Shown here: in pieces, positions 1 to 61,735 of the stretch
Numbering within the stretch: the first letter of the stretch is position 1
How the letters are laid out: every line of letters starts with the position of its first letter
Origin: Naegleria gruberi
Taxonomy: Eukaryota
Strand: one strand, 5' to 3'
Length of the DNA stretch: 64,000 nt
Assembly (NCBI GenBank): GCA_000004985.1
Contig: GG738847.1
Program-made: the position numbers and the translations under genes
The notes under the pieces: model-generated
Told to the model about the DNA's origin: nothing
Seen by the model: the letters and a program-made list of their open reading frames with translations, nothing else
Database searches by the model: none

Positions 1-327
1 CAAACCCAAACCCAAACCCAAACCCAAACCCAAACCCAAACCCAACCCAAACCCAAACCCAACCCAAACCCAAACCCAAACCCAAACCCAAACCCAAACC
101 CAAACCCAAACCCAAACCCAAACCCAAACCCAAACCCAAACCCAAACCCAAACCCAAACCCAAACCCAACCCAAACCCAAACCCAAACCCAAACCCAAAC
201 CCAAACCCAAACCCAAACCCAAACCCAAACCCAAACCCAAACCCAAACCCAAACCCAACCCAAACCCAAACCCAAACCCAAACCCAACAAACCCAAACCC
301 AAACCCAACAAACCCAAACCCAAACCT
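1..327. repeat. Telomere: about 54 tandem CCCAAA units on the + strand, with occasional CCCAA variants. This is the C-rich strand of a left chromosome end (G-strand TTTGGG).
   Basis: A perfect 6-nt periodic repeat begins at base 1. The C-rich strand reading 5'->3' into the chromosome is the orientation expected at a left telomere. Confidence 0.9.
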
Positions 328-395
328 AAAAACCTAAAAACCCAAACCTAAAAACCCAAACCTAAAAATCTAAACCTTTGAACCTAAAGTTGAAA
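328..395. repeat. Degenerate telomere-associated repeats (CCTAAAAA, CCCAAACCTAAAAA) forming the telomere to subtelomere transition.
   Basis: The CCCAAA unit decays into aacctaaaaacc-type variants and then loses periodicity. Confidence 0.7.
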
Positions 396-1039
396 TACCA
401 GACCCAATGTTTCAAAGTTCAAACCCTAGCCCAAATTATTGAATATTATATCATTCGATTGTAAATGATGAGTAGAACAATGTATTATATTTAGTTTTTC
501 AATTTATAAAATATTAACTTTGTAAATAATGTCAGATTAAAAATTATAAAATGAAACCATAGGAAGAATGATAATTTCAAAATCCTTTAATGAGATTATA
601 TAGTATATATCTTCACTAACAACATTCATAATCACTCTCATATGAAATTTCTAAACTTCATGTCGGTAGGTATAAAAGTATCAAGTGAAAAGGGAAGATG
701 TGAGGTAAAAGAGGTCAACTATAACTTTTGAGTTTCTCATCAAAACATATTGAATCCAGACATGAAAATGTTCCATTTGATTAGTAAACATCGAATATCA
801 AATTTATTTTAACTTTCATATTTAAAGATTTCTTCCCTCAACCACACATGGTCAACTATGATGAAAAGGTGGAAATCTTGATAAAGGACCACCTATTGAA
901 ACTTTACCAAAATGATTTATATGATCTATAGTGATATAGAATTCAATTTCATATCATAAGAATTAGAAATGGTACCATGGGAATGTAAATGTTGATTTTA
1001 CAAAGTTGACTGANAGGAAAGACAAGTCAGATCAAGTCT

Positions 1040-1507
1040 NNNNNNNNNNNNNNNNNNNNNNNNNNNNNNNNNNNNNNNNNNNNNNNNNNNNNNNNNNNNN
1101 NNNNNNNNNNNNNNNNNNNNNNNNNNNNNNNNNNNNNNNNNNNNNNNNNNNNNNNNNNNNNNNNNNNNNNNNNNNNNNNNNNNNNNNNNNNNNNNNNNNN
1201 NNNNNNNNNNNNNNNNNNNNNNNNNNNNNNNNNNNNNNNNNNNNNNNNNNNNNNNNNNNNNNNNNNNNNNNNNNNNNNNNNNNNNNNNNNNNNNNNNNNN
1301 NNNNNNNNNNNNNNNNNNNNNNNNNNNNNNNNNNNNNNNNNNNNNNNNNNNNNNNNNNNNNNNNNNNNNNNNNNNNNNNNNNNNNNNNNNNNNNNNNNNN
1401 NNNNNNNNNNNNNNNNNNNNNNNNNNNNNNNNNNNNNNNNNNNNNNNNNNNNNNNNNNNNNNNNNNNNNNNNNNNNNNNNNNNNNNNNNNNNNNNNNNNN
1501 NNNNNNN
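1040..1507. other. Assembly gap (run of N). A single n also occurs at 1014.
   Basis: 468 consecutive n characters. Both flanks carry a related 36-nt motif (aagttgactga.aggaaagacaagtcagatcaagtct and aaggttgacttgggaggatcaggaggaagtcttga), so the gap probably sits in a collapsed minisatellite. Confidence 0.95.
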
Positions 1508-2617
1508 TTGGTAATATCCATAATTCAGTAAGGTAAAGAGTGATTTATCAAGGTTGACTTGGGAGGATCAGGAGGAAGTCTTGAATATAGAGAACCAAAT
1601 CCTCAATCAACAAAATACATATCAATCGATTGGAAATCAATAGTACATCTCGAAAATATCATTTATTTTATGTTTTGAAATCTCTCCTTGACCTAATTTG
1701 GTCAATTAAGACAATAAAGGATTACACTATAGGGAAAGTTACCAATATCAAAATAAATGATACTATCATGTTTAACATCTCAAATAAAGTGGACTTTCTT
1801 CAAATTATATATTTTCATTTCAAGAAATACATCCGGTAGATAGTACATGGTGATATTTCAAGTGAATGGATGGAAATCTGAAAGGTACAGAAACAACTCC
1901 ATTTTCACTGAAATTGATATCATGATATGTAGACACTCTAATTAGCATATGGTATCAATTTTATAAATATTGGTTCAGTAAATGTCCTGTTGTCAACTCT
2001 ATCACTTTATTATGGACTTTTGACATGATATCATAGATTATACTCCAAATCACTCAATTTACATGCAATAAATCAAAAATTGATATCACATAATCTAGAC
2101 ATCATTTAAGTATATATAAACAAGTTTAGAAACAATTCATGATACTTTCATTCAACCAATCGGTTCATGTTCAATGTCAACAGTATTAATATCCTAGTGA
2201 ACTCTCTATCTCAATGAAAGTAGGTTCAATCAATATATAACTTTACCATATATATTAAATCACTTTATTAATTATATGGTATCATTTACAGTCTGTTAGA
2301 ATTATATTCAGTATGATAATAATATCATTCTTCCAAAAAGTCAGCTTTCATCACAAAGATCACACTCCATCCCATTCATTTTGCAAAATATCATATTAGT
2401 GTAAAATATGAATACACTCCTCTTTATGTGGATAACAATCTGGAACAGTTTCATATTCATAGTTCAATATCTTAAAGTTGCAACCAATCCATAACACAAT
2501 ATTTTAACGTAGATAAAATCGATTTACTTTGAAAAGTAATCTTAAAAATTATACGCCAAAATAGAGCAGCTTTCTTACTTGTCTTTCTTGTAGTGTTAAA
2601 TTTATTTGTCCGAAAAC

Positions 2618-2790
2618 CCAAGAATCTAAACCTAAAAACCTAAAGCTAATTGAATATTCAATCTCATACCGGAAAAGATTCTTATTTGCGGAAAAAGATT
2701 CGAATCTTAGCGAATCTTCAATCAATTTCGAATGGAAACCGAATCTAAGAATCCAATAATATCGAAATCTTTACCACTTTCCAAATAACA
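2618..2790. repeat. Interstitial telomere-like remnant (aaacctaaaaacctaaag) followed by a cluster of about 6 GAATCT / CGAATCT motifs.
   Basis: Visible by inspection. It matches the degenerate CCTAAAAA units at 330-390 and lies 2.3 kb internal to the true telomere. Confidence 0.5.
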
Positions 2791-5504
2791 ACGCAAACAA
2801 CAAATACACCAAATCTCGATATCTAGATAGAAAGTATATACTTTTTTTAAAACTTTACTGAAAAACCTTTCCAAAAGCCCAAGATTCACTTAAAGACTCT
2901 ATATTAGATCATAAAGACCATGGTGCCACCGAAGTAACAAATCAAAACAACTCTAATCCAAACCCAAATATTACCTATCTAGATGATATAATGATGATTC
3001 TCCATAGTTACATGCATGTGTAATTGAATGTTGACACTTTTCATCTTGTTATATTTATAGAGTTGGTATCCAACAGAGTCAGTTCACAATATTAAATATT
3101 GAAACTCATTCTATATGACATGTTTGATGTATGGAACGGGTTTTTATTGATTGTAATCAGTTTGAAATAATTTGATGAAATTGACACTGTCTAGTCACCA
3201 TTACATAACAAATAGACCATAGTTTACATTCCATCTCAGTCATTTCAACGAGTTATTGATTTATTCCACCACCATTATGTTTCTCATACATTTTAGTGCA
3301 GTTTATATTTCAAGTGTGATTTCTGTGTAGATTATTATAATCGTAATACCTTGCAATACCAATAAAACTCAATAGAAGAGTTAATTCTTCTCATTTTCAA
3401 ATAGATTATTCAATATAGAACACATCTAGATAGTTTCCATATCATAAAAGTCAAGCTACTATATATGGTCTTTGATTAAATAAATAGACTGCCGTTAATT
3501 ACTGGAATATTAATTCAATGCTTGTTGATCAAGCTATTGATTGAAATCAAACCGATTATTGAATATTGATCATTGAATTGGTGAATAATCACTCTTGATA
3601 ATGTTACTTATTCATATTGCATGCAAATCAACCTGATTCAATCTACAAAGGTTGGTAGTTGCACCACTTCGTGGCGAAACTACCCATCCACGATCAATCA
3701 ACATGTGATTCACTTCCATTCAACTCAATTTGACCGTTATAATCAATAAATCAATGAAATGTTCCTTTATTAGCAATACCTATTCAATCTAATGAGTAGA
3801 TTCACGTCCCAAACATTTGACTTCTAAAAGTCCATAATTCAAAAGTTGATACTGACCTGACCTTTATATATCTATCAATATAAGAAATGAAACCATCAAA
3901 TTTACATCATTAATAGATGATAAGAAATATAATCAATGATATGAATCTTCACTAAGTAATCTCTTAAATAACCCAAATAAATCAACTCTGAATCCTAATA
4001 AACTTTTATTAGTACTATTGTAGATGTACCATATCAATTATTTCGTCTTGTTTCGTTGAAACCATGAAGATTTTGATTTTTCTGTTTTTAATTAAATTTC
4101 ACATCACCTACATTGTCTCCTATGATGAAAAGTATATAGGAAGGATGTAAGCAATACATAGTTGATACTCTATTCATTGTTTGCTGTTTTATGGTGTATT
4201 CGAGATTTTGAAATTTTGAGAAATATCCAGAGGTAATTCACCAAATAATTATAATTCCTCTTTAAATGAAATGAGGAGGGATTCATGCTATGATTATTTG
4301 GAAGAGCCACATAGATTTTGGACACTATCTGAACGGAAATGAGGTAGAAAGAGTACAATCTTCAAGACCAAACAATTTAGGTCCTATTCATGTTGGATTT
4401 CTGATGGTTAGGTTCTAAGGGCAATCCTAAAGTCACCTTTCCACACAATAAAAGTAGCAGATGATAACATTTCTAAACTTTGTTTATTGGTATAAATTTG
4501 GAATGACACTACGGTGCGACTTTTATGGAAAGGAATAAAATTGGCACAGCTCATCGTGCGATAATTATGGCACACAACAACTGGAAAGAAACTCTAATTT
4601 TATTTGGGAGAACTTGATTAGTTACCTAACTACCATCAATTCTGAAAACATTAAAACATCACTAAATTCATCCTTGCTGAATATATCGACCGAGTCATCA
4701 GTTTCCGACTGTGACCTTAGTAGAGTTTCACGCTATCCATTTTGGAGGAAAATTTGTTAACTGTAAGAATTGCTTAAAGCACATTAAGGATCCAAATGAC
4801 GAACCATTCCAAGGTTTGCCTCAAGAATGGGATTTTTGTTCATATTGTCAAAATGGAATAGAACCTTCTAAAATAGTATACAATTACTCTGTGTCTGTCC
4901 ATCATCCATTCAAACAGGTTTACAAAAATATTAATATTAATATTAATTTTACCAGACTGTTCGGAATGGTCAATAGTAGGAGAACTTTCTCTGATCCATT
5001 TTGATCAAGTTATGATAGGGATCATGAAATATTTCTGCGAATTTTGAAAGTACTTGGACCATAACTCAACATGCACTTCACCAACTTGAATCATGTCTTT
5101 TAGTACTACTATTTAAATAGATAATAATAAACATCATATTTATTATCAGATTTTTGTCATGTTGTCAATTTACCAAGTTTCTATATTTGCATGCAATCGG
5201 GCTCAAATCAAACAACAATAAAACAACAATTCATAATGTTTATTATATTAATAATTTCGAGTCTTGTAGCATAATTTGTGAAAATCATGGTGATGTTGAA
5301 ACATCACGAATAGCATGTCATTCATCCATTAACCCTCTGTTCCTATTGGATACTTTACTTTTAATGTTTGTGATACTTTACTATTATATTCCTTTAAATT
5401 AATGGAGATAGAAGGTATTACATCAGCTCATAAAAAATAGCAAGCCAAATATATTTCCTCTTCCTTTCAACGACACAAACAGTTTGTGAAAGCAGGATGA
5501 AAAA

Positions 5505-22741: not shown

Positions 22742-25351
22742 ATGCCGAAATTATCATCTTCATCTAAACGGAAAAAGGCTTGTGAATATTGTCATCAGAA
22801 GAAGAGGAAGTGTGAAGGATTTGATGGGTTATCTTGTGATAGATGTAAAAAAGCAAATACACAATGCTCATTAACAACAAGTTCAACAAGTAGTGGCTAC
22901 AAACGAAAAAGAGAAATCACACAAGAATATATTACTGAATGTCTTGAATCTTATTCTCAAGATATACAGTTTAATCCGAAGATTGTGAAAAGGAAGACAG
23001 CTTGTTTAGAATGTCGTAAAGTACATAAAAGTTGTGTATCTTCATCTACTTCAACTTTATCTTGTGATCGGTGTAATAGTACTAGTAAAATATGTTCTTA
23101 TAATACTGATGTTATTATTCCTAATGATAATACAATGGAAACAACAGTAATAATCTTCGAAAAAGTTATTCCAAAACTTTTAGAACCTATAACATCAAAT
23201 TGGATTCAATTATTCATCAAATATTTAAAAAATACAACAAAAGGAAATGATCAATTATTACAAATTATTAATTCACTTTCATCCCAAAAAAGAATTGAAT
23301 TTGGATTACACGATTTAAAAAAATTACCTGTAGTGGATGTATATAGAGCTATTTTAAAAGCAAAAATTCCAGTAGGAGTTTTAGATGATTTTGTAAAGGA
23401 TTTAGAAGAAAAAAATATTTATATATTCCCCCAAAAACAATCTATTTATAATTTTTCTTCTATATTAAATGGAGAATTGGAAGCTAAAACATATGGTTGG
23501 GGAATTGAAAAAAAATATTATGATCTAACTTGTAATAATATTCAAAAGAAATATATAGTATATTCTTTAGCTGAAGCAAAAGTTTTCTTAATTAAGTATT
23601 TAAAATATTTAAAAAGGAAAGATGAAAATATTATTGAATATTTAAAAAAGTATGGTTGGTTGTGGAATATTGTAGGTGATGGTAGACCAATTAAGGGAGC
23701 TCCAACACATTTCTTAATACGAGAAATTAGAAATGATATTAATATTCAATCACATAAGAATAATATTACAATTCTAGTAACAGATATTCCAGAAAAATTA
23801 CTTTCAGCATTACCATCAACAGCTTTTGAATTTATAATTGAATTTTTAAATATTGATTTTATTGAATTTGAAGGAGATAATATTAAATTATTGAAAATAT
23901 TTAATCCAGATTTAGGGTTTATTTATAAAATTATTGATAATTCAAATGTTAAACATGAAATAATTAATAATTTTAAAATAGTTCAATTATATGTTTTATT
24001 ATATTTAATTTATTCAATCGCAAATGGAAACGATCAAGAATTACATTATAATTATATTTATGAAATTTCAAATATGGAAAAAATTGAAATTTTTCAAATT
24101 GGTTTGGATATTAATAATGAACTTCCAAATATTCCTGAAATTCCAAAAAATACAATAGAATTATTTAATTATTTTGGTATTAATGAAAACCACTTTATTT
24201 TAATTGAAAATAGTTTAAAAATGAATAATGATTATAATGGAAAAAATTTAAATAGATGTGGATGTTGTTATATTCATTCTAATATTATTAAATTTGCATT
24301 ATTGTTTCCAGAATTAGATTGTTTCAAATGGCAACGAATTGATAAACATTTCAATAATCCAATGGGATTTTCAGTTTCTCAATGGTCATATTGTTCAAGT
24401 CATGCTTTAGTTTGTACTGTACAATTAATGGTTGATAATTTATTAGGCCAATCGGAAGAATTAAGAAATGAATTTATTAGTATATTCATAAATGATGCAA
24501 ATATTATTAATAAGAATAATTTAATTACTAATATTTCTAATTTTTCTGGTTTTAATTTTATTACAAAATTTATTAATGATAATAAGAAACATTTAGATCA
24601 AAATATTATAAATAATGCTTTCAAAATAGAAAAAAATAATAATGAAATAATGAATAATTGTAAAGATAAAATAATTAAAAAAATTGAAAAATCGGATGAG
24701 TGGAATAAATTTAATATTGAGTATGAAAAGGAAAAAGATGATGAAAAAGATGTAGATGAAAGAAAATATGAGTCTTTTAATTTTAAAAGATTTTTATTTC
24801 GCCAAAGTTATCAAATATTATTTAGTTGTTATATATGGTTACCTAAAATAGTAAAAAAATTAATTTCTATATTAGATAAAAATAATAATTCAACAACTTC
24901 AGGAACTCGGAATAGATTAAATCAAATAGAATCTAATATTACAAGTTTAAGTATACTAAATGATTTAATTAATATTCATAAATTATGGACATTATTTATA
25001 CAACGCGAATTAATATTAACAAGTTCAACTGAAACATTAGAATCCATGTTTACACAATTAAATCATTATGAAAAACAGTTATTTGATTTTACTAAATTAT
25101 TTGCAACAATTTACAATAATTATTCAATTTATTTCCACATTGAAAACAATTTATTTAATTTTTATACTAAATTTAAAGTTAGTTCAGAAATGATAAAACA
25201 AGTGGGAACGGAAGTACAAAATAAACAAGACAGAAAAATGATTAATAATATTTCTTGTCATAATGGATTAAATAATTCAGATATGCAATTATTAATTTAT
25301 GGCAGATCCAAACTGTTATTATTAACTTTAGAAGATACAAATAAAAATTAA
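22742..25351 (+). CDS. Transcription-factor-like protein (869 aa) with two tandem Zn(II)2Cys6 binuclear-cluster motifs at the N-terminus and a long Asn/Ile/Lys-rich remainder.
   Basis: First motif: CEYCHQKKRKCEGFDGLSCDRCKKANTQC. Second motif: CLECRKVHKSCVSSSTSTLSCDRCNSTSKIC. Both have the CX2CX6CX8-10CX2CX6-7C spacing of GAL4-type clusters. Single exon. Confidence 0.75.
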   Translation: MPKLSSSSKRKKACEYCHQKKRKCEGFDGLSCDRCKKANTQCSLTTSSTSSGYKRKREITQEYITECLESYSQDIQFNPKIVKRKTACLECRKVHKSCVSSSTSTLSCDRCNSTSKICSYNTDVIIPNDNTMETTVIIFEKVIPKLLEPITSNWIQLFIKYLKNTTKGNDQLLQIINSLSSQKRIEFGLHDLKKLPVVDVYRAILKAKIPVGVLDDFVKDLEEKNIYIFPQKQSIYNFSSILNGELEAKTYGWGIEKKYYDLTCNNIQKKYIVYSLAEAKVFLIKYLKYLKRKDENIIEYLKKYGWLWNIVGDGRPIKGAPTHFLIREIRNDINIQSHKNNITILVTDIPEKLLSALPSTAFEFIIEFLNIDFIEFEGDNIKLLKIFNPDLGFIYKIIDNSNVKHEIINNFKIVQLYVLLYLIYSIANGNDQELHYNYIYEISNMEKIEIFQIGLDINNELPNIPEIPKNTIELFNYFGINENHFILIENSLKMNNDYNGKNLNRCGCCYIHSNIIKFALLFPELDCFKWQRIDKHFNNPMGFSVSQWSYCSSHALVCTVQLMVDNLLGQSEELRNEFISIFINDANIINKNNLITNISNFSGFNFITKFINDNKKHLDQNIINNAFKIEKNNNEIMNNCKDKIIKKIEKSDEWNKFNIEYEKEKDDEKDVDERKYESFNFKRFLFRQSYQILFSCYIWLPKIVKKLISILDKNNNSTTSGTRNRLNQIESNITSLSILNDLINIHKLWTLFIQRELILTSSTETLESMFTQLNHYEKQLFDFTKLFATIYNNYSIYFHIENNLFNFYTKFKVSSEMIKQVGTEVQNKQDRKMINNISCHNGLNNSDMQLLIYGRSKLLLLTLEDTNKN

Positions 25352-25585
25352 AATTTTATCACTAATCAAGAATCGAACCAACGTCTCTGCGTTGATGCTA
25401 CCAGATTCATACCACTGCACTATCCATGCATTTATATTTACTAGAAACTCGGATGCAATAAGAACCATACACTTGTCGGAGGACCTTACTTTTGCTATGG
25501 CGGCGGCGGCGAAAATTTCCGGGAAGCTAGTGATCCACTGACAATTATTTATTATTGGAACAAGTTTGTGGAATGAAGAAGTGAT

Positions 25586-26579
25586 TTACTTCAACCAATT
25601 CTTTATTGTCATTCTAATTGGAAAATGATCACTCACAGCTTCAGCCAATGCCTGAGTCAACCCATATTCTTCCTTAAAATTCACCACTTGAACCTTTTCA
25701 TAATCAATTGAACCAGCAATGACAAATCTATCATATGGACATTTGGTTTTTACCATTGTTCCTTGATCATCCTTAATCAACCATTTGAATGTCGAATCTG
25801 TTCTCAGACGAATCCCCTTCCAATCTGATTCCTTCACATAACTACATCCAGCATTGAAATCTCCACTCAACAACCATGGAATATTCGAGTTGATAATTCT
25901 ATTCTTTCTGTAATAATACTCATACACATCATAGAGTGCATCAATTTCTTGAACAGCAGCTTTTGGAGAAGTGTGAATTCCACTAACAAACAAGGCATTC
26001 TTTGAGGCAACATTTGGAAGAGAAATGGATCTAGTTGAATTGGATGGTAAAACCAACACAGAATATGGTGGGCGTTCAAATTGATCAAAATCTTCAGGAT
26101 ACTGATAAGTGGAATTAATATGGACCTTATCAGAGTCATAGATATATCCTGTATATTGATATTAACACACAAAAACATTGAAAATTTCACAACATACCAT
26201 ATTGTTCCTTACTACTTGTTCTTCCCAATCTCAAACTTAAAGATATTTGGAATTTTCTACCAGCACTGTTTTTGCTCTCATTCAATAGTTGAAGTAATTC
26301 CTTAATGGCTTCTCCAGATGCATCTCTAATTTCCATGATCAATGTCAGATCACATTGTGAGAGAATTTTCAATAGAACATCAACAACTTGATTATTTTGC
26401 ATCTTTTTCTGACCAAATACTTGGACATTGAAACTGCAGTATGTTAAATCGGTGCTTGATTGTTTGGCAGTTGACTTGTTGATAATGGAAAGGTTCAGGG
26501 TAAGAACTGGATACGAAAGAAGGGAAAGAATCAAGAGTAAAGAGGTGGTGAGTAAGAAGGTGCGACTAGTGGAGATCAT
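25586..26579 (-). CDS. Secreted DNase I-like endonuclease (about 314 aa). It has 2 exons at 26579..26198 and 26148..25586, with a 49-nt intron.
   Basis: Signal peptide, then CSFNVQVFGQKKM...VVDVLLKILSQCDLTLIMEIRD...SSKEQYG (cf. DNase I FNIRTFG...IVLIQEVRD...SYKERY). Exon 2 contains EIDALYDVY, GDFNAGCSYV and SDHFPI, which are DNase I hallmarks. Confidence 0.8.
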
Positions 26580-57496: not shown

Positions 57497-59809
57497 TTTT
57501 CTTAAAGAATTAATTATATTAATATTATAATAGTATTGAAGTTGTCGGTCTCTGTACTAGAAACATTTCTAAATACGTTTTTTAATCATAATAAAGTCTT
57601 TAAAGTTTCATCAGTTACTTCAGATTCATTTGCTGATTTACTTGCTTTGAAGTAAATCACCTTACTTGTTGGTATCCTACATTGACTGTTCTCTAATAAA
57701 TCCTAAATGTTCCAAATAATTATAATATGGTTAAGGTTCAAGAATAAAATATTGGGAAAGAGTTTGTGTTCTTGATTGTTATAACAATACAGATTGTGAA
57801 AATGTTGTGGTGGTGTTGAACTTTCTTATCCAAATAGTGGTCCATCGTATGTTAAATATACCAACCAGACGTCTTCCAATACCTTCCGTACTTATACCAG
57901 ATTGTTTAATCAATGATGATTGTATTGAAAGTGGTTTATCATCAGGTAGAAGTGAATGTATCAATCAAGTTTGTTCTGTTAAAACTTGTGCATCCAATAG
58001 TGATTGTTACAGCTGATTGTGGAACAAATTCTTCATTTTCTGAATAAATCAATTGATTTCCATATTCTCCCAAGTGGATATTAGTGTATAATATCTTTGT
58101 GGATGTTTCTAGAAATATGTTATCACATCCTAACAAGATCAAGAAGTCAGATAATGATGGAGGATATGAGGAAGTGTTTAACCTTAGCTTGAAGTGATGT
58201 GTCTTATAGTATTCGAATAGCAACTTGTAGAGTTGTTTGATTTCAATCTTAAAACTGTATTTCTGAATTTGACCAATAGCAGTTGCAAGTGGAACCAATT
58301 AAATAATTTCGTTCATCAGAGTCATGTATTTAGGATGATATTTGTCATATCTGTCCACAAAGAATTTGGTAACATTTCATTGGAAAATGAGGCAGCAATT
58401 CGAGAGTTACATGAAAGAATTTCAGAATAGAAGTTCACCTCTCTTTGTGATAGATTCCAAATTTTGATTAACCTTTTCAATATAAATATCTATCAAGAGA
58501 GCTAGCAAAACACAAAATGCCATGATATTGAGAATGAGAATAGTCACAACTAGACATTTAGTGTTGGACATAGAAACTGAACCACAACATGCATTCACCT
58601 CAATACCTCCAGTTCCATCACGAGATGCATTGAAACGTTTTCTAATAGTAATTGTTGTGGGATTCGAAGAATGAGCAGGTGAAAAGGATGATGCTTTGGA
58701 AATTCTTCTTAATATCCATAAAAAGGAGGATTATGATTCTGGCCTACACCAATAAAATTCGAACTGAAGTTGAGAAAGGATACTCAAACCAATGATAGCA
58801 AAACATTGGCTTGTTTGATTCTCATTTGTTGTGTTGTTTGATGGTCTTGCCAGTTGTTATTTCATTGGTGACCTCGTTCAGTAGAGAAAAGCAAGAACGT
58901 GGCAAATTAGAAGAGCTCCTCTGGAAAGAATTGCAGAATTTTTGCAATATTAGTATTGGAAAGAGAATGACATTTCACCAATTCCACTTAAAATGATATC
59001 TCCTGAGTACTGCTGCTTGATGTTGAAATGAAGCTTTAGTGTAATTCAGGTAGTTGAGCATATCTTAATCTTGCAACAATACCAGTACCTGGTTTATGTT
59101 AAATGTTGGTATAAAGGTAGAATTAATTGTTTTAGGATATGAACAATTATGTTTCAAGCTAACATCATTATTGGATTTGTGCAATAATTGTAGGTGATGA
59201 GGTTGAAACTTTTCCCAAACTACTCTTGATGGTTGGTGGAGTATTTTGTTGTTGGTAATTTAAATTTTTGTTAACAATATCAACAACAACAACCTTGAAA
59301 CAACAATCCAACAACAATTATTACGATTTTCACGAATAGATTCAAAAATGTTTAAACCTAGAGTGTCGAGTAATCACATATGGACTCTCACCAGTGAACT
59401 CTCATCATAATCTTCTTACAATAAATATAAGGTTTGGTGATGTTGTGCATGATGTTCCGTGTAGTTGTGTTGCTGTGGTTGGTCTCATCATATTTTTGAA
59501 AAAGAGGTATTTTTTATAAAATAATAAATAATTAAAATATGTGATGAAAACTGTAAATTACGATTTTATGAAAAAAATAACAAAATTAAAGCGTATTATC
59601 ATATTCATATGTAGAATTATTTCGGAATGGTGTTAGTGGTGTTAGTGGTGTTGTGGAACAACGAACAGTAATTGTTATCATTGATAGGATTGCTACCATC
59701 CTTTAGTATTAAAACGTGATAGAATGTGTTCTTCAGTGTGTTGGTCATGTAATACCATCACGTTTCAAAAAACAAAAACAAAAAAATTCCTTTAAACATT
59801 GTTTGAACA

Positions 59810-60892
59810 ATGCTTGCACCACAGAAACGAGTTAGTGATTTTGGAGATGGTGGACAAATAGATCAAGTTCAAGTTGAAGAAACCACACCAAATCTTATAA
59901 CTTCCATCATACGATTGAAACAATTTCGCATCAAAGGACGATCATTTGAATTTCAAGAAGTGTTCGAAAATCCAAAAAGTGATACTTTGGTTTGTAAATG
60001 TTTGGGTGATGATGGACATGAATACGTTGTTAAAATTATTAAACTAATTGATGGAATATTTCCAAGTAATGATCCAAATGATACTTATTCAGATGGTTAT
60101 CAAGTAGGAGAATGGAGATTTGCTGAAACTGTGAAACAGTTGTTCGATTCTAGTGTGGTAACTTATGAGGTTTCGGAACTAATTGGTGAAGAAATTGTAC
60201 TTGTATCAGAATACAGAGGAATGGATATGAAAAAATATGGAAAGAACAAATCAGGAAAATTGTTTTTATGTGAAGCGATTCAAATTTTAATTAGAATTGC
60301 TAATGCATTATGCCAACTCTATAAGCATAATATAATTCATAGTGATATCAAACCTGCAAATATCTTTATTACTTTTGAGCCAACCAGTTATTCATTTGAT
60401 GTCATTGATGCTACATTGGGTGATTTGGGAATAGCCAGAACTGTTTTATCAAAAGGTCAGCCAATTTATTCATCTAATATATTTTCTACTCCTGATACTG
60501 CACACACATACTTAACACAGCACGGAACATGTGGTTATATTGCACCAGAATGTTTTAAAGGAGAACAATGTTTATTAAGTGCTGTGAAAAAAAATGGCTT
60601 CGCATTTGAATTTGTTGATGAATTATTAAGAAAAGATAGAGAAATTGTATTGGAAGCAGTTAAACAAAATGGATATGCACTTGAATATGCTGATAGGTCA
60701 TTTAGAAAAGATAGAGAAATTGTACTGGAAGCAGTTAAACAAAATGGACGTGCACTTGAATTTGTTGATGAATCATTAAGAAAAGATAGAGATATTGTAT
60801 TGGAAGCAGTTAAACAAAATGTCTGGGCACTTGAATGTGCTGATGAATCATTAAGAAAAGATAGAGAAATTGTATTGGAAGTAGTTAAATGA
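59810..60892 (+). CDS. Protein kinase-domain protein with C-terminal DUF4116-like 24-aa repeats (360 aa as annotated). It ends at an in-frame TGA, and the same frame stays open for 5 more repeats to 61279.
   Basis: Kinase motifs are YVVKIIK (VAIK-like), IIHSDIKPANIF (catalytic loop), DLGIARTV (DFG-like) and GTCGYIAPECF (APE). The repeats read ...LRKDREIVLEAVKQNGxALE(Y/F)(A/V)DES... ORFs 59810..60892 and 60950..61279 share one frame and are separated by one TGA at 60890-60892. Confidence 0.65.
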   Translation: MLAPQKRVSDFGDGGQIDQVQVEETTPNLITSIIRLKQFRIKGRSFEFQEVFENPKSDTLVCKCLGDDGHEYVVKIIKLIDGIFPSNDPNDTYSDGYQVGEWRFAETVKQLFDSSVVTYEVSELIGEEIVLVSEYRGMDMKKYGKNKSGKLFLCEAIQILIRIANALCQLYKHNIIHSDIKPANIFITFEPTSYSFDVIDATLGDLGIARTVLSKGQPIYSSNIFSTPDTAHTYLTQHGTCGYIAPECFKGEQCLLSAVKKNGFAFEFVDELLRKDREIVLEAVKQNGYALEYADRSFRKDREIVLEAVKQNGRALEFVDESLRKDRDIVLEAVKQNVWALECADESLRKDREIVLEVVK

Positions 60893-61260
60893 GATGGACG
60901 CGAACTTTGCTATGTTGATAAGTTATTAAGAAAAGATAGAGAAATTGTATTGGAAGCAGTTAAACAAAATGGCTGGGCACTTGAACATGTTGATAAATCA
61001 TTAAGAAAAGATAGAGAATTTGTATTGGAAGCAGTTAAACAAAATGGACGTGCACTTGAATATGCTGATGAATCATTGAGAAAAGATAGAGAATTTGTAT
61101 TGGAAGCAGTTAAACAAAATGGACATGCATTTGAATATGTTGATAAATCATTAAGAAAAGATAGAGAATTTGTATTGAAAGCAGTTAAACAAAATGGATG
61201 TGTATTTGAATATGTTGATGAGTCATTAAGAGAAATTATATTAGAAGCTGTCGTTAATGC
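60570..61260 (+). repeat. Tandem array of about ten 72-bp coding repeats (24-aa DUF4116-like units), nearly identical to each other.
   Basis: The direct repeat ...gaaattgtattggaagcagttaaacaaaatgg.gcacttgaatatg.tgatgaatcattaagaaaagatagag... recurs with period 72. Confidence 0.8.
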
Positions 61261-61735
61261 TGAAACACAGAAATTATGAAGTGTATCATTCATAAATATC
61301 AATTCTGCATAAAGTAAGACCCATCTAAAGCAATTCGTCGCCCAATTCTTTCAATTCTCTGGAGTGGATTGTTGCAAATAATAAGAAAAGATAGCACTCA
61401 ATTTAAGTTCATCAACTGTTGTTAAACTGATATCAATTTCGAGTATTTTCAATAATATTCAAAGAAAGTTATCAACCATTTCGTTTGTTGAATAGAAATA
61501 GGAAGAAATAGTCTTTATCAAGTTGATGAATTTCTCAAATACAAGCATGCTAAATTAACAGAAACATGTCAATAATTCATCATTCGAAACAAAACTAATG
61601 AAATAAACAACCACTCGGAGATTTAAGAAATAAAATCTCATTGGCACTTTCAACTAAACCAACATGCACTTGTTTTTGCCTAAATTTGGAAATTTTAAAA
61701 GACAAATTTTTTAAAAAGAAAGCCAAGACGAAACT

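What the first reader, a model, noticed from the sequence alone, without database searches (positions are those of the whole stretch)
60570..61279. In-frame TGA inside a near-perfect 72-bp coding repeat array downstream of a kinase domain
Ten 24-aa DUF4116-like repeats keep exact 72-nt periodicity and one reading frame from 60570 to 61279. The sixth unit reads VVK-TGA-DGRELCYVDKLL where the others read AVKQNGxALEYADESL, so the codon CAA has been replaced by TGA. That unit is the most diverged, with about 10 substitutions. Possible explanations are a recent nonsense mutation truncating the protein after five repeats, stop-codon readthrough or selenocysteine-like recoding, a sequencing error in a hard-to-assemble array, or a short intron. 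A 42-nt GTAGTT...GATAAG intron is possible in principle but would break repeat periodicity.
Basis: seen in the sequence. Interest (0 to 1): 0.55.

Follow-up and report, generated by a model that had tools for sequence, protein, structure and literature searches.

The report
Premature stop in Naegleria kinase-repeat gene
A real in-frame TGA interrupts a young 75-bp coding repeat array in a Naegleria gruberi kinase-like gene, and it is most likely an ordinary nonsense mutation in a decaying gene copy that the public annotation hides with an implausible 42-bp intron.

Summary
The window is Naegleria gruberi. The gene is NAEGRDRAFT_62160 / XP_002682207.1.

**Observation.** The TGA at 60890-60892 is real and in frame, where the other units have CAA. 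The details differ from the finding:
- The period is 75 nt (25 aa), not 72 nt.
- The stop lies in unit 5, not unit 6.
- That unit has 13 differences from the array consensus.

**Annotation.** The public 475-aa gene model equals the read-through ORF minus exactly 60881-60922.

**Why the intron looks like a gene-model artefact.**
- Its donor scores no better than a random exonic GT, and its acceptor is AAG.
- It is shorter than the nine ORF-joining introns picked in the window (49-139 nt), and more GC-rich than all but one of them.
- It breaks the predicted alpha-solenoid at the junction.

**Recoding.** I found no SECIS element, no leaky stop context and no downstream RNA structure. TGA is a normal stop in this window.

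**Gene state.** Compared with three N. gruberi kinase+DUF4116 paralogs, this gene has lost about 140 aa, covering kinase subdomains IX-XI and the linker.

**Verdict.** The best reading is a nonsense codon in a degenerating, lineage-specific paralog (confidence about 0.6). A true newly born intron stays possible at about 0.15. RNA-seq (PRJEB23822) would decide between them. Interest is low.

The parts
59810..60580 (+). Kinase-like N-terminal region (aa 1-257). It runs from the N-lobe through the activation segment to the APE motif, and subdomains IX-XI are missing.
   Evidence: Pfam Pkinase scores 48 bits (cut-off 31.7) but covers only profile positions 57-173 of 263. PDB kinase alignments end by query residue 222. 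Paralogs P0121, P0123 and P0135 continue with DIWSLGR...RPS plus a linker that is absent here.
60581..61276 (+). Tandem array of 75-nt / 25-aa DUF4116 repeats: eight full units, a ninth with a 9-nt deletion, and a vestigial tenth that runs into the terminal stop.
   Evidence: Tandem Repeats Finder gives period 75, 8.6 copies and 0 indels. Per-unit table. nhmmer hits. Pfam DUF4116 scores 309-434 bits.
60881..60955 (+). Unit 5, the most diverged full unit. It reads VVK*DGRELCYVDKLLRKDREIVLE.
   Evidence: 13 differences from the consensus, all within offsets 0-43, and none in the last 31 nt. It has the lowest repeat-HMM score among the full units, 40.8 against 48.8-59.0 bits.
60890..60892 (+). 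In-frame TGA, in a TGA-G context, at the codon that is CAA in seven of the other eight units (AAA in unit 1).
   Evidence: TGA ends 8 of 30 long open frames in the window, so it is an ordinary stop in this genome.
60881..60922 (+). The 42-nt segment that the public gene model XP_002682207.1 removes as an intron (GTAGTT...GATAAG). It is probably not a real intron.
   Evidence: P0001 equals the read-through translation minus these 14 codons. The donor sits at the 52nd percentile of exonic GTs and the acceptor at the 77th percentile of exonic AGs. GC is 0.38 against 0.19-0.32 for eight of the nine reference introns (the ninth, 1528-1590, is 0.40), and length is 42 nt against 49-139 nt.
60893..61276 (+). 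128 codons after the stop, still open and still good DUF4116 repeats. Under the favoured reading this stretch is untranslated.
   Evidence: The contrast between conserved and variable halves is significant upstream of the stop (p=0.002) but not downstream (p=0.6). The numbers are small.
61277..61279 (+). Terminal TGA of the ancestral full-length reading frame.

Best explanation
The locus is NAEGRDRAFT_62160. It is a lineage-specific Naegleria gruberi paralog of a 'protein kinase + DUF4116 alpha-solenoid repeat' family, and it is structurally degenerating.

It carries two lesions:
- An in-frame deletion of about 140 aa has removed kinase subdomains IX-XI and the linker.
- A nonsense codon (TGA, 60890-60892) now lies in the fifth unit of a young 75-bp repeat array.

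The simplest route to the stop is CAA to CGA (Gln to Arg, which the family tolerates at this position) and then CGA to TGA by a CpG transition.

Translation most likely ends there. The product would be 360 aa: a truncated kinase-like domain plus about four repeats. The remaining 128 codons would be an untranslated relic that has not yet decayed.

The 42-nt intron in the public gene model is most likely a device of the gene predictor to keep the reading frame open across the stop.

**Shown:** the stop, the repeat geometry, the identity of the gene model with the 'spliced' product, the weakness of the splice signals, and the kinase truncation relative to paralogs.

**Inferred:** that no splicing occurs, the mutational route to the stop, and that the downstream repeats are not translated.
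For: 1. **Gene model.** The public model P0001 (475 aa) equals the 489-codon read-through minus 60881-60922.
2. **Reference introns.** ORF-joining introns in this window have GTAAGT or GTATGT donors and TAG or CAG acceptors. They are 49-139 nt long with GC mostly 0.19-0.32.
3. **Candidate intron.** It has a GTAGTT donor, an AAG acceptor, 42 nt and GC 0.38. Its donor score equals the median of 1540 exonic GTs, and its acceptor is worse than 77% of exonic AGs. Seven of the nine reference donors score in the top 0.06-0.8% in leave-one-out tests. There are 28 alternative in-frame GT-AG bypasses, and none scores positively on either site.
4. **Protein consequence.** Splicing lowers the DUF4116 score from 434 to 309 bits. 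It leaves an 11-aa stump, and AlphaFold2 confidence falls below 50 at residues 359-361, right after the 357|358 junction, while neighbouring repeats score 74-94.
5. **Paralog structure.** The closest paralog for which genomic DNA was available (P0123/P0270) is one uninterrupted 850-codon ORF, so there is no family precedent for an intron in the repeats.
6. **Kinase truncation.** Only Pfam profile positions 57-173 of 263 are matched, and the repeats start 10 residues after APE. Paralogs P0121, P0123 and P0135 carry DIWSLGR...RPS plus a linker.
7. **Ordinary stop.** TGA is a normal stop in the window. The context is UGA-G, no downstream structure exists (z=+1.4), and no SECIS or other Rfam match appears at E<=10.
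8. **Position tolerance.** The homologous position in family repeats is Q, K, E, R, L or V and never Cys, so a Q to R to stop path is plausible.
Against: - **No direct data.** No transcript or read-level data could be examined, so splicing is not directly excluded.
- **Derived splice dinucleotides.** Both the GT (60882 C>T) and the AG (60922 A>G) are substitutions specific to unit 5.
- **Localised divergence.** Unit 5's excess divergence is confined to a 44-nt core that nearly coincides with the annotated intron. The flanks are perfectly conserved: 13/44 against 0/31, with about 3.4 changes expected in the conserved half (P=0.035). The post-stop core has 10/32 changes against 15/256 in the rest downstream, p=7e-5. 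Uniform decay after the stop does not explain this. A locally unconstrained segment would.
- **Neutral-looking changes.** Unit 5's substitutions cannot be told apart from random ones when scored with an independent repeat HMM (20% of simulations score at least as high).
- **Small reference set.** The reference intron set has nine members, was selected partly on donor similarity, and two members look doubtful.
- **Intact upstream ORF.** The 257-codon kinase part is still intact, so the gene is not an old pseudogene.
Confidence: 0.6

Rival explanations
1. The public annotation is right. 60881-60922 is a genuine, very short (42-nt) spliceosomal intron, newly born from coding repeat sequence ('intronization'). 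Point substitutions created the GT and the AG, splicing removes the stop, and a 475-aa protein with a shortened fifth repeat is made.
For: - The gene model P0001 uses exactly this intron.
- GT and AG are both unit-5-specific derived changes.
- Twelve of the 13 unit-5 differences lie inside the 42 nt, while both flanking conserved halves are identical to the consensus.
- The substitutions look random with respect to the repeat profile.
- The length is a multiple of three with an in-frame stop.
- The downstream frame is intact for 128 codons.
Against: - The donor GTAGTT lacks +4A and +5G and scores at the median of exonic GTs. The acceptor is AAG, whereas every reference intron has TAG or CAG.
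- It is shorter than every reference intron and more GC-rich than all but one (1528-1590, GC 0.40), which is itself one of the two doubtful reference members.
- The spliced product loses 125 bits of DUF4116 score, and the predicted solenoid is interrupted at the junction.
- The variable core is where all units vary: 31 of 39 differences in the other units fall there too. The localisation is therefore only partly informative.
- Neutral drift alone cannot give three times the divergence of the other, near-neutral cores unless the unit is also older.
- Predicted introns that skip stops are a familiar artefact of gene prediction (my own knowledge, not tested here).
Confidence: 0.15
2. The stop arrived by transfer rather than by point mutation in place. 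A short-tract gene conversion, or an unequal exchange, pasted about 44 nt of diverged core from another DUF4116 repeat or pseudogene elsewhere in the genome into unit 5. The TGA either came with the patch or arose soon after. The functional outcome (truncation) is the same as in the best explanation. Only the origin differs.
For: - There is a sharp mosaic: 13 differences in 44 nt, flanked on both sides by 31 nt identical to the array consensus.
- The core still reads as a recognisable DUF4116 half-repeat. VVKQDG and DKxL variants occur in other family members.
- N. gruberi has many DUF4116 genes that could act as donors.
Against: - No donor sequence was found. Nothing similar occurs in the 64-kb window, and the best protein-level matches to the core share only 9 of 15 residues.
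- The rest of the genome could not be searched.
Confidence: 0.12
3. The TGA is decoded rather than terminating, by programmed stop-codon readthrough or selenocysteine insertion, giving a 489-aa protein.
For: - The frame is open and repeat-like for 128 codons after the stop.
- With the stop replaced by Gln the protein scores best against DUF4116, at 434 bits.
- N. gruberi is reported to have selenocysteine machinery (my own knowledge, not checked here).
Against: - No SECIS or other cis-element appears in 59500-62000 at E<=10.
- There is no stable structure downstream of the stop (z=+1.4, and 190 of 200 shuffles fold at least as well).
- The context is UGA-G, not the leaky UGA-C / CUAG type (established knowledge).
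- The homologous position is Gln, Lys, Glu or Arg in relatives and never Cys.
- TGA terminates other long frames in the window, and this gene's own ancestral frame.
- The open frame downstream is inherited by repeat duplication, so it is not independent evidence.
Confidence: 0.03
4. The TGA is a sequencing or assembly error in a repeat array, and the true sequence is CAA or CGA.
For: Tandem arrays are prone to assembly errors, and no reads could be inspected.
Against: - Two adjacent bases would have to be wrong (CA to TG).
- The unit carries 11 other unique differences that make it easy to place.
- The units differ from each other at 5-17 of 75 positions, so collapse is unlikely.
- The public protein model was built on the same sequence.
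Confidence: 0.05

Closest known systems
N. gruberi kinase + DUF4116 paralogs NAEGRDRAFT_53795 (P0123), NAEGRDRAFT_68631 (P0121) and NAEGRDRAFT_75119 (P0135)
   Same: They share the same architecture and a divergent kinase subfamily. All have the VCKC...EYVVKI motif, no glycine loop, H-x-D-IKP-x-N, D-[FL]-G and APE, followed by C-terminal DUF4116 repeats. Identity over the kinase part is 36-46%.
   Different: - The paralogs keep kinase subdomains IX-XI (DIWSLGR...RPS) and a linker of about 50 aa. This gene lacks about 140 aa there.
- Their repeats are mutually diverged, whereas here they form a young, near-identical 75-nt tandem array.
- P0123/P0270 is one uninterrupted ORF with no internal stop.
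Predicted introns placed over an in-frame stop in a pseudogene or damaged gene (annotation artefact)
   Same: The model removes the minimum in-frame GT...AG segment that contains the stop. The splice signals are non-consensus, the length is unusually short, and the removed sequence is plainly homologous to neighbouring coding repeats.
   Different: This was not proven, because transcript evidence was unavailable. Which predictor built the model could not be checked.
Intronization of exonic sequence (creation of an intron from coding sequence after a nonsense or splice-site-creating mutation; known from the literature, recalled from memory)
   Same: The segment is 3n long, carries a premature stop, and has GT and AG created by point substitutions in formerly coding sequence. 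Sister repeat units preserve the ancestral state.
   Different: The splice sites are as weak as random GT/AG, and no junction evidence exists. Described cases rest on transcript data.
DUF4116 (PF13475) alpha-solenoid repeat proteins of bacteria and protists
   Same: The Pfam match is strong (309-434 bits). The repeat is 25 aa and helical. The family is predicted to be an alpha-solenoid (PMC8078820). The closest repeat sequences, at 60-69% identity, are in uncultured bacterial and metagenomic proteins.
   Different: Here the repeats are fused to a truncated kinase, and the array is interrupted by a stop.

Membership tests
DUF4116 (PF13475) repeat family | Pfam HMM match above the gathering score | tested here: met
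   309 bits for the public model and 434 bits for the read-through with Gln at the stop, against a cut-off of 24.9.
DUF4116 (PF13475) repeat family | Periodic helical repeat of about 25 aa (the Pfam model spans two units) | tested here: met
   Period 75 nt with no indels. The AlphaFold2 model shows regular helices per 25 aa, with pLDDT 74-94 away from the junction.
Eukaryotic protein kinase domain (PF00069) | HMM match above the gathering score, with the catalytic motifs (beta3 Lys, HxD, DFG, APE) | tested here: met
   48 bits against a cut-off of 31.7. VVKIIK, HSDIKPAN, DLG and APE can be read in the translation.
Eukaryotic protein kinase domain (PF00069) | Complete C-lobe (subdomains IX-XI, helices alphaF to alphaI) | tested here: not met
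   Only profile positions 57-173 of 263 are matched. The repeats start 10 residues after APE. The paralogs have DIWSLGR...RPS at this place.
Spliceosomal GT-AG intron of N. gruberi | GT...AG termini | tested here: met
   60881 GT and 60921-60922 AG.
Spliceosomal GT-AG intron of N. gruberi | Donor close to GTAAGT or GTATGT | tested here: not met
   The donor is GTAGTT. It scores -5.0 bits, at the 52nd percentile of 1540 exonic GTs. Seven of nine reference donors fall in the top 0.06-0.8%.
Spliceosomal GT-AG intron of N. gruberi | YAG acceptor in an AT-rich 3' end | tested here: not met
   The acceptor is GATAAG, and 77% of exonic AGs score at least as well. All nine reference introns end in TAG or CAG.
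Spliceosomal GT-AG intron of N. gruberi | Length and composition within the range of real introns | tested here: not met
   42 nt and GC 0.38, against 49-139 nt and GC mostly 0.19-0.32 in the window. One doubtful reference intron (1528-1590) has GC 0.40. The sample is small, and the published mean intron length is 203 bp (PMC8296547).
Spliceosomal GT-AG intron of N. gruberi | Spliced junction seen in transcripts | not testable with these tools
   No transcript data were reachable. Exact-product look-ups returned nothing.
Selenoprotein gene (UGA = Sec) | SECIS element in the 3' UTR | tested here: not met
   No SECIS family appears among the Rfam matches at E<=10 in 59500-62000. The Rfam models may be less sensitive for protist SECIS elements.
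Selenoprotein gene (UGA = Sec) | Cys or Sec at the homologous position in relatives | tested here: not met
   The sister units have Gln or Lys. Family repeats have Q, K, E, R, L or V.
Programmed stop-codon readthrough | Leaky stop context or a stimulatory downstream structure | tested here: not met
   The context is UGA-GAU. The 101 nt from the stop fold no better than shuffles (z=+1.4).
Pseudogene or decaying paralog | Disabling lesion(s) relative to intact paralogs | tested here: met
   There is a premature TGA and an in-frame loss of about 140 aa of the kinase C-lobe and linker.
Pseudogene or decaying paralog | Relaxed constraint on sequence downstream of the lesion | tested here: inconclusive
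   The contrast between conserved and variable halves is significant upstream (21/176 against 3/124, p=0.002) but not downstream (10/132 against 5/93, p=0.6). The numbers are small, and one downstream change is shared by three units.
Pseudogene or decaying paralog | Loss of expression or of full-length product | not testable with these tools
   No transcriptome or proteome data were available.

The most novel reading that the evidence does not exclude
The 42-nt segment is a bona fide intron caught just after birth. A coding repeat half-unit was turned into an intron by two point substitutions that created the GT and the AG, which rescued a nonsense mutation. Seven sister units in the same array preserve the pre-intron sequence as an internal control. 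If so, it would be an unusually clean example of intron gain by intronization in a heterolobosean. It would also show that the Naegleria spliceosome can use a GUAGUU donor and an AAG acceptor in a 42-nt intron.
Probability: 0.12. Interest if true: 0.55.

Novelty: new member of a known kind. Interest (0 to 1): 0.15.

Why it matters
The practical value is mainly for curation. XP_002682207.1 / D2V040 probably describes a protein that is never made, because its frame is kept open by an intron with no credible splice signals. It is also listed as a kinase although a third of the kinase fold is missing.

The locus illustrates how lineage-specific kinase+repeat paralogs in Naegleria are born and decay, through repeat amplification, internal deletion and nonsense mutation.

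If RNA-seq shows that the 42 nt are really spliced out, the locus becomes a neat natural example of intron birth from coding sequence. That outcome is unlikely on present evidence.

Tried and rejected
**Searches for another copy of the locus**
- An independent copy, strain or ortholog would have shown whether the TGA is polymorphic. Exact-product look-ups returned nothing for the public model, the 360-aa ORF and the 109-aa downstream ORF.
- Two metagenome DNA scans found nothing. One used the unit-5 core and the other a degenerate pattern for the kinase catalytic loop.
- A protein search with the 128 post-stop residues gave at best 69% identity.
- P0001 is alone in its 90% cluster.
- Paralog loci from the N. 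gruberi assembly are not in the positional index.

**Tool behaviour**
- A protein search with the kinase part alone returned no hit at all, not even P0001. This is a limitation of the word index, and the exhaustive search replaced it.

**Tests that were inconclusive**
- I asked whether unit 5's substitutions were filtered by protein-level selection. I built an independent 25-aa repeat HMM from 944 repeats and ran 5000 simulations. The observed score is 40.8 bits against 35.8 +/- 5.9, with 20% of simulations at least as high. I therefore withdrew the argument that unit 5 is 'still a good coding repeat', which the Pfam scores of 40-aa pieces had suggested.

**Leads that did not hold**
- A possible relic of a further repeat downstream at 61378-61394 is not significant (E=7.3).
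- A donor for a gene-conversion patch was not found in the window or in the fetched proteins.

**Literature**
- I found only the mean N. gruberi intron length (203 bp) and a 30-bp minimum setting used for N. fowleri mapping. The 2010 genome paper is not held.
- No paper mentions this gene's identifiers.
Full report
**Identity of the locus**

The window has about 33% GC. The ORF at 59810-60892 is 99% identical over its whole length to a 475-aa 'predicted protein [Naegleria gruberi]' (P0001). That protein is NAEGRDRAFT_62160 / XP_002682207.1 / UniProt D2V040. The organism is therefore N. gruberi NEG-M, a heterolobosean amoeboflagellate. Its published genome statistics are 33% GC, 1.7 exons per gene and a mean intron length of 203 bp (PMC8296547).

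**Checking the observation**

The in-frame TGA at 60890-60892 is real. It lies inside a tandem coding array.

- The array's period is 75 nt / 25 aa, not 72 nt / 24 aa. Tandem Repeats Finder reports period 75, 8.6 copies, 85% matches and no indels over 60587-61231. A 72-nt register drifts out of phase.
- In the register AVKQNGxALEYxDESLRKDREIVLE there are eight full units (60581-61180), a ninth with a 9-nt deletion, and a vestigial tenth that ends in the terminal TGA at 61277-61279.
- The stop is in unit 5 (60881-60955, VVK*DGRELCYVDKLLRKDREIVLE).
- Seven of the other eight units have CAA at that codon and unit 1 has AAA, so two substitutions are needed.
- Unit 5 has 13 differences from the array consensus, 11 of them non-synonymous.
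- The array is unique in the window.

**What the public annotation does**

The read-through translation has 489 sense codons, counting the TGA position. P0001 has 475 residues and is identical to it except that 'VVK*DGRELCYVDK' is missing. It reads ...RKDREIVLE|LLRKDREIVLEAVKQNGWALEH.... The question becomes whether that intron is real.

**Is the 42-nt intron credible?**

I collected introns in the same window that are required to join long open frames. One example is 61986-62062 in the neighbouring G-alpha-like gene, where splicing restores the conserved GKST P-loop.

- The nine reference introns I picked are 49-139 nt long, mostly 49-77 nt.
- Eight of them have GC 0.19-0.32. The ninth, 1528-1590, has GC 0.40.
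- They begin with GTAAGT or GTATGT (two have weaker variants) and all end in TAG or CAG.

The candidate is 42 nt long with GC 0.38, begins GTAGTT and ends AAG.

- Scored with position weight matrices built from the nine introns, its donor (-5.0 bits) lies at the 52nd percentile of all 1540 GT dinucleotides inside long ORFs of the window.
- Its acceptor is worse than 77% of exonic AGs.
- In leave-one-out tests, seven of the nine reference donors fall in the top 0.06-0.8%.
- There are 28 different in-frame, stop-free GT...AG bypasses of the TGA. None scores positively at either site.
- The closest paralog for which DNA could be obtained (P0270, a 99%-identical copy of P0123 on an ENA contig) is one uninterrupted 850-codon ORF.

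At the protein level, splicing lowers the DUF4116 score from 434 to 309 bits. In a single-sequence AlphaFold2 model of P0001 the repeats are confidently helical (pLDDT 74-94). Confidence collapses at residues 359-361, immediately after the 357|358 junction. DUF4116 is predicted to be an alpha-solenoid (PMC8078820). Deleting 14 of 25 residues breaks its register.

**Points in favour of the intron**

I do not want to hide these.

- The GT (60882 C>T) and the AG (60922 A>G) are both unit-5-specific substitutions.
- Unit 5's excess divergence is confined to its first 44 nt (13/44), while its last 31 nt and the preceding 31 nt are identical to the consensus.
- Compared with the other cores (31/308) the excess is significant, p=0.001.
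- Compared with the rest of the post-stop sequence (15/256), the post-stop part of the core (10/32) is seven-fold enriched, p=7e-5. Uniform decay after a nonsense mutation therefore does not explain the pattern.
- I built a 25-aa repeat HMM from 944 repeats of other proteins and simulated 11 random substitutions in the core. Unit 5 scores 40.8 bits against 35.8 +/- 5.9, and 20% of simulations score at least as high. Its changes cannot be distinguished from neutral ones.

A locally unconstrained segment would fit these facts. So would a short gene-conversion patch from a diverged DUF4116 repeat, or an older unit that escaped homogenisation.

Two considerations weaken the argument. First, 31 of the 39 differences in the other units also fall in this variable core. 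Second, those cores themselves look nearly neutral, so relaxed constraint alone cannot produce three times their divergence.

**Recoding**

- TGA closes 8 of 30 long open frames in the window, and this gene's own ancestral frame.
- The context is UGA-G.
- The 101 nt from the stop fold no better than shuffled sequence (z=+1.4).
- No SECIS or other relevant family appears at E<=10 in 59500-62000.
- The homologous position in sister units and relatives is Q, K, E, R, L or V and never Cys.

Readthrough and selenocysteine are therefore unsupported.

The presence of Arg at this position in relatives makes CAA to CGA to TGA a plausible route. The last step is a CpG transition. This route is an inference.

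**The gene is damaged in a second way**

- Pfam Pkinase matches only profile positions 57-173 of 263, and PDB kinase alignments stop by query residue 222.
- The repeats begin 10 residues after the APE motif.
- An exhaustive search with the kinase part found three N. gruberi paralogs (P0121, P0123, P0135; 36-46% identity) with the same unusual kinase subfamily followed by DUF4116 repeats.
- In all three, APE is followed by DIWSLGR...RPS (subdomains IX-XI) and a linker before the repeats. About 140 residues are missing here.
- The paralogs' repeats are mutually diverged, whereas this gene's units differ at only 5-17 of 75 nt. The array is therefore much younger than the gene.
- The kinase part is still an intact 257-codon ORF, so whatever happened is not ancient.

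**Conclusion**

The most likely account, at about 0.6, is as follows. This is a lineage-specific kinase+DUF4116 paralog that lost its kinase C-lobe, amplified a 75-bp repeat, and acquired a nonsense codon in unit 5. Translation stops after 360 residues. The four and a half downstream repeats are a young relic. The annotated intron is a gene-model artefact.

A genuine newborn intron remains possible at about 0.15, and so does a gene-conversion origin of the diverged patch at about 0.12. The second is compatible with truncation.

Readthrough or selenocysteine recoding (0.03) and sequencing error (0.05) are unlikely.

Transcript data for N. gruberi exist (PRJEB23822; PMC6142364) and would settle the matter in one mapping.

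**Novelty and interest**

A premature stop in a member of an expanded protist gene family, masked by a predicted intron, is ordinary. Its value is mainly as a curation flag. I score interest 0.15. The only reading that would raise it is real intronization, with probability about 0.12 and interest about 0.55 if true.

Noticed in passing
window 60540-60600 (aa 243-262 of the ORF): The kinase domain ends right after the APE motif and runs straight into the first DUF4116 repeat. About 140 aa that the three N. gruberi paralogs have (subdomains IX-XI, DIWSLGR...RPS, plus a linker) are missing. The annotated 'kinase' therefore cannot have a complete kinase fold.
   Followed up: yes
window 61736-64000 (+), intron 61986-62062: The neighbouring gene looks like a divergent G-protein alpha subunit. 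A 77-nt GTAAGT...TAATAG intron must be spliced to restore the GKST P-loop. The second exon is an open frame of more than 650 codons that runs off the end of the window and has a long low-complexity Ser/Asn-rich insert.
   Followed up: partly
L001 (ENA ERZ929261, run ERR1078381, PRJEB11402), 107-2659: A contig from a public 'metagenome' assembly encodes a protein 841/850 identical to the N. gruberi paralog NAEGRDRAFT_53795, as one uninterrupted ORF. That sample therefore holds a second N. gruberi-like strain, which could serve as a comparator for this locus.
   Followed up: partly
P0002, P0003 and at least 12 further hits; L002 (ENA ERZ25039523 contig_17084, 3.12 Mb): The repeats' nearest relatives (50-65% identity) are mostly unnamed metagenomic proteins. 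At least 14 lie on one 3.1-Mb contig. Two of these that I read have N-termini that look F-box-like, which I did not test. This suggests DUF4116 repeat proteins are shared between amoebae and possibly amoeba-associated bacteria.
   Followed up: no
window 61181-61276: Unit 9 carries an in-frame 9-nt deletion (loss of K-D-R). It is followed by a vestigial tenth unit (AVVNAETQKL*), so the 3' end of the array was already eroded or remodelled in the ancestral reading frame.
   Followed up: partly
window 60910-61302 (-): A 130-aa ORF lies on the opposite strand of the array. Its periodic sequence shows it to be a by-product of the repeat, not evidence of a gene.
   Followed up: no
window 59628-59656: A small tandem repeat (TGGTGTTAG x 3.3) lies about 150 nt upstream of the start codon, in a non-coding stretch.
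   Followed up: no
window 1-4000 and 20000-26000: GC falls to 0.23-0.29 here, against about 0.33-0.37 elsewhere, with strong AT skew at 1-2000 and 20000-22000. The long ORF 22742-25351 lies inside the second low-GC stretch.
   Followed up: no
(tool behaviour): The word-indexed protein search failed to return P0001 when queried with exact sub-sequences of it (the kinase part and the post-stop repeats). Negative results from that tool are therefore weak evidence. The exhaustive search did return it.
   Followed up: yes
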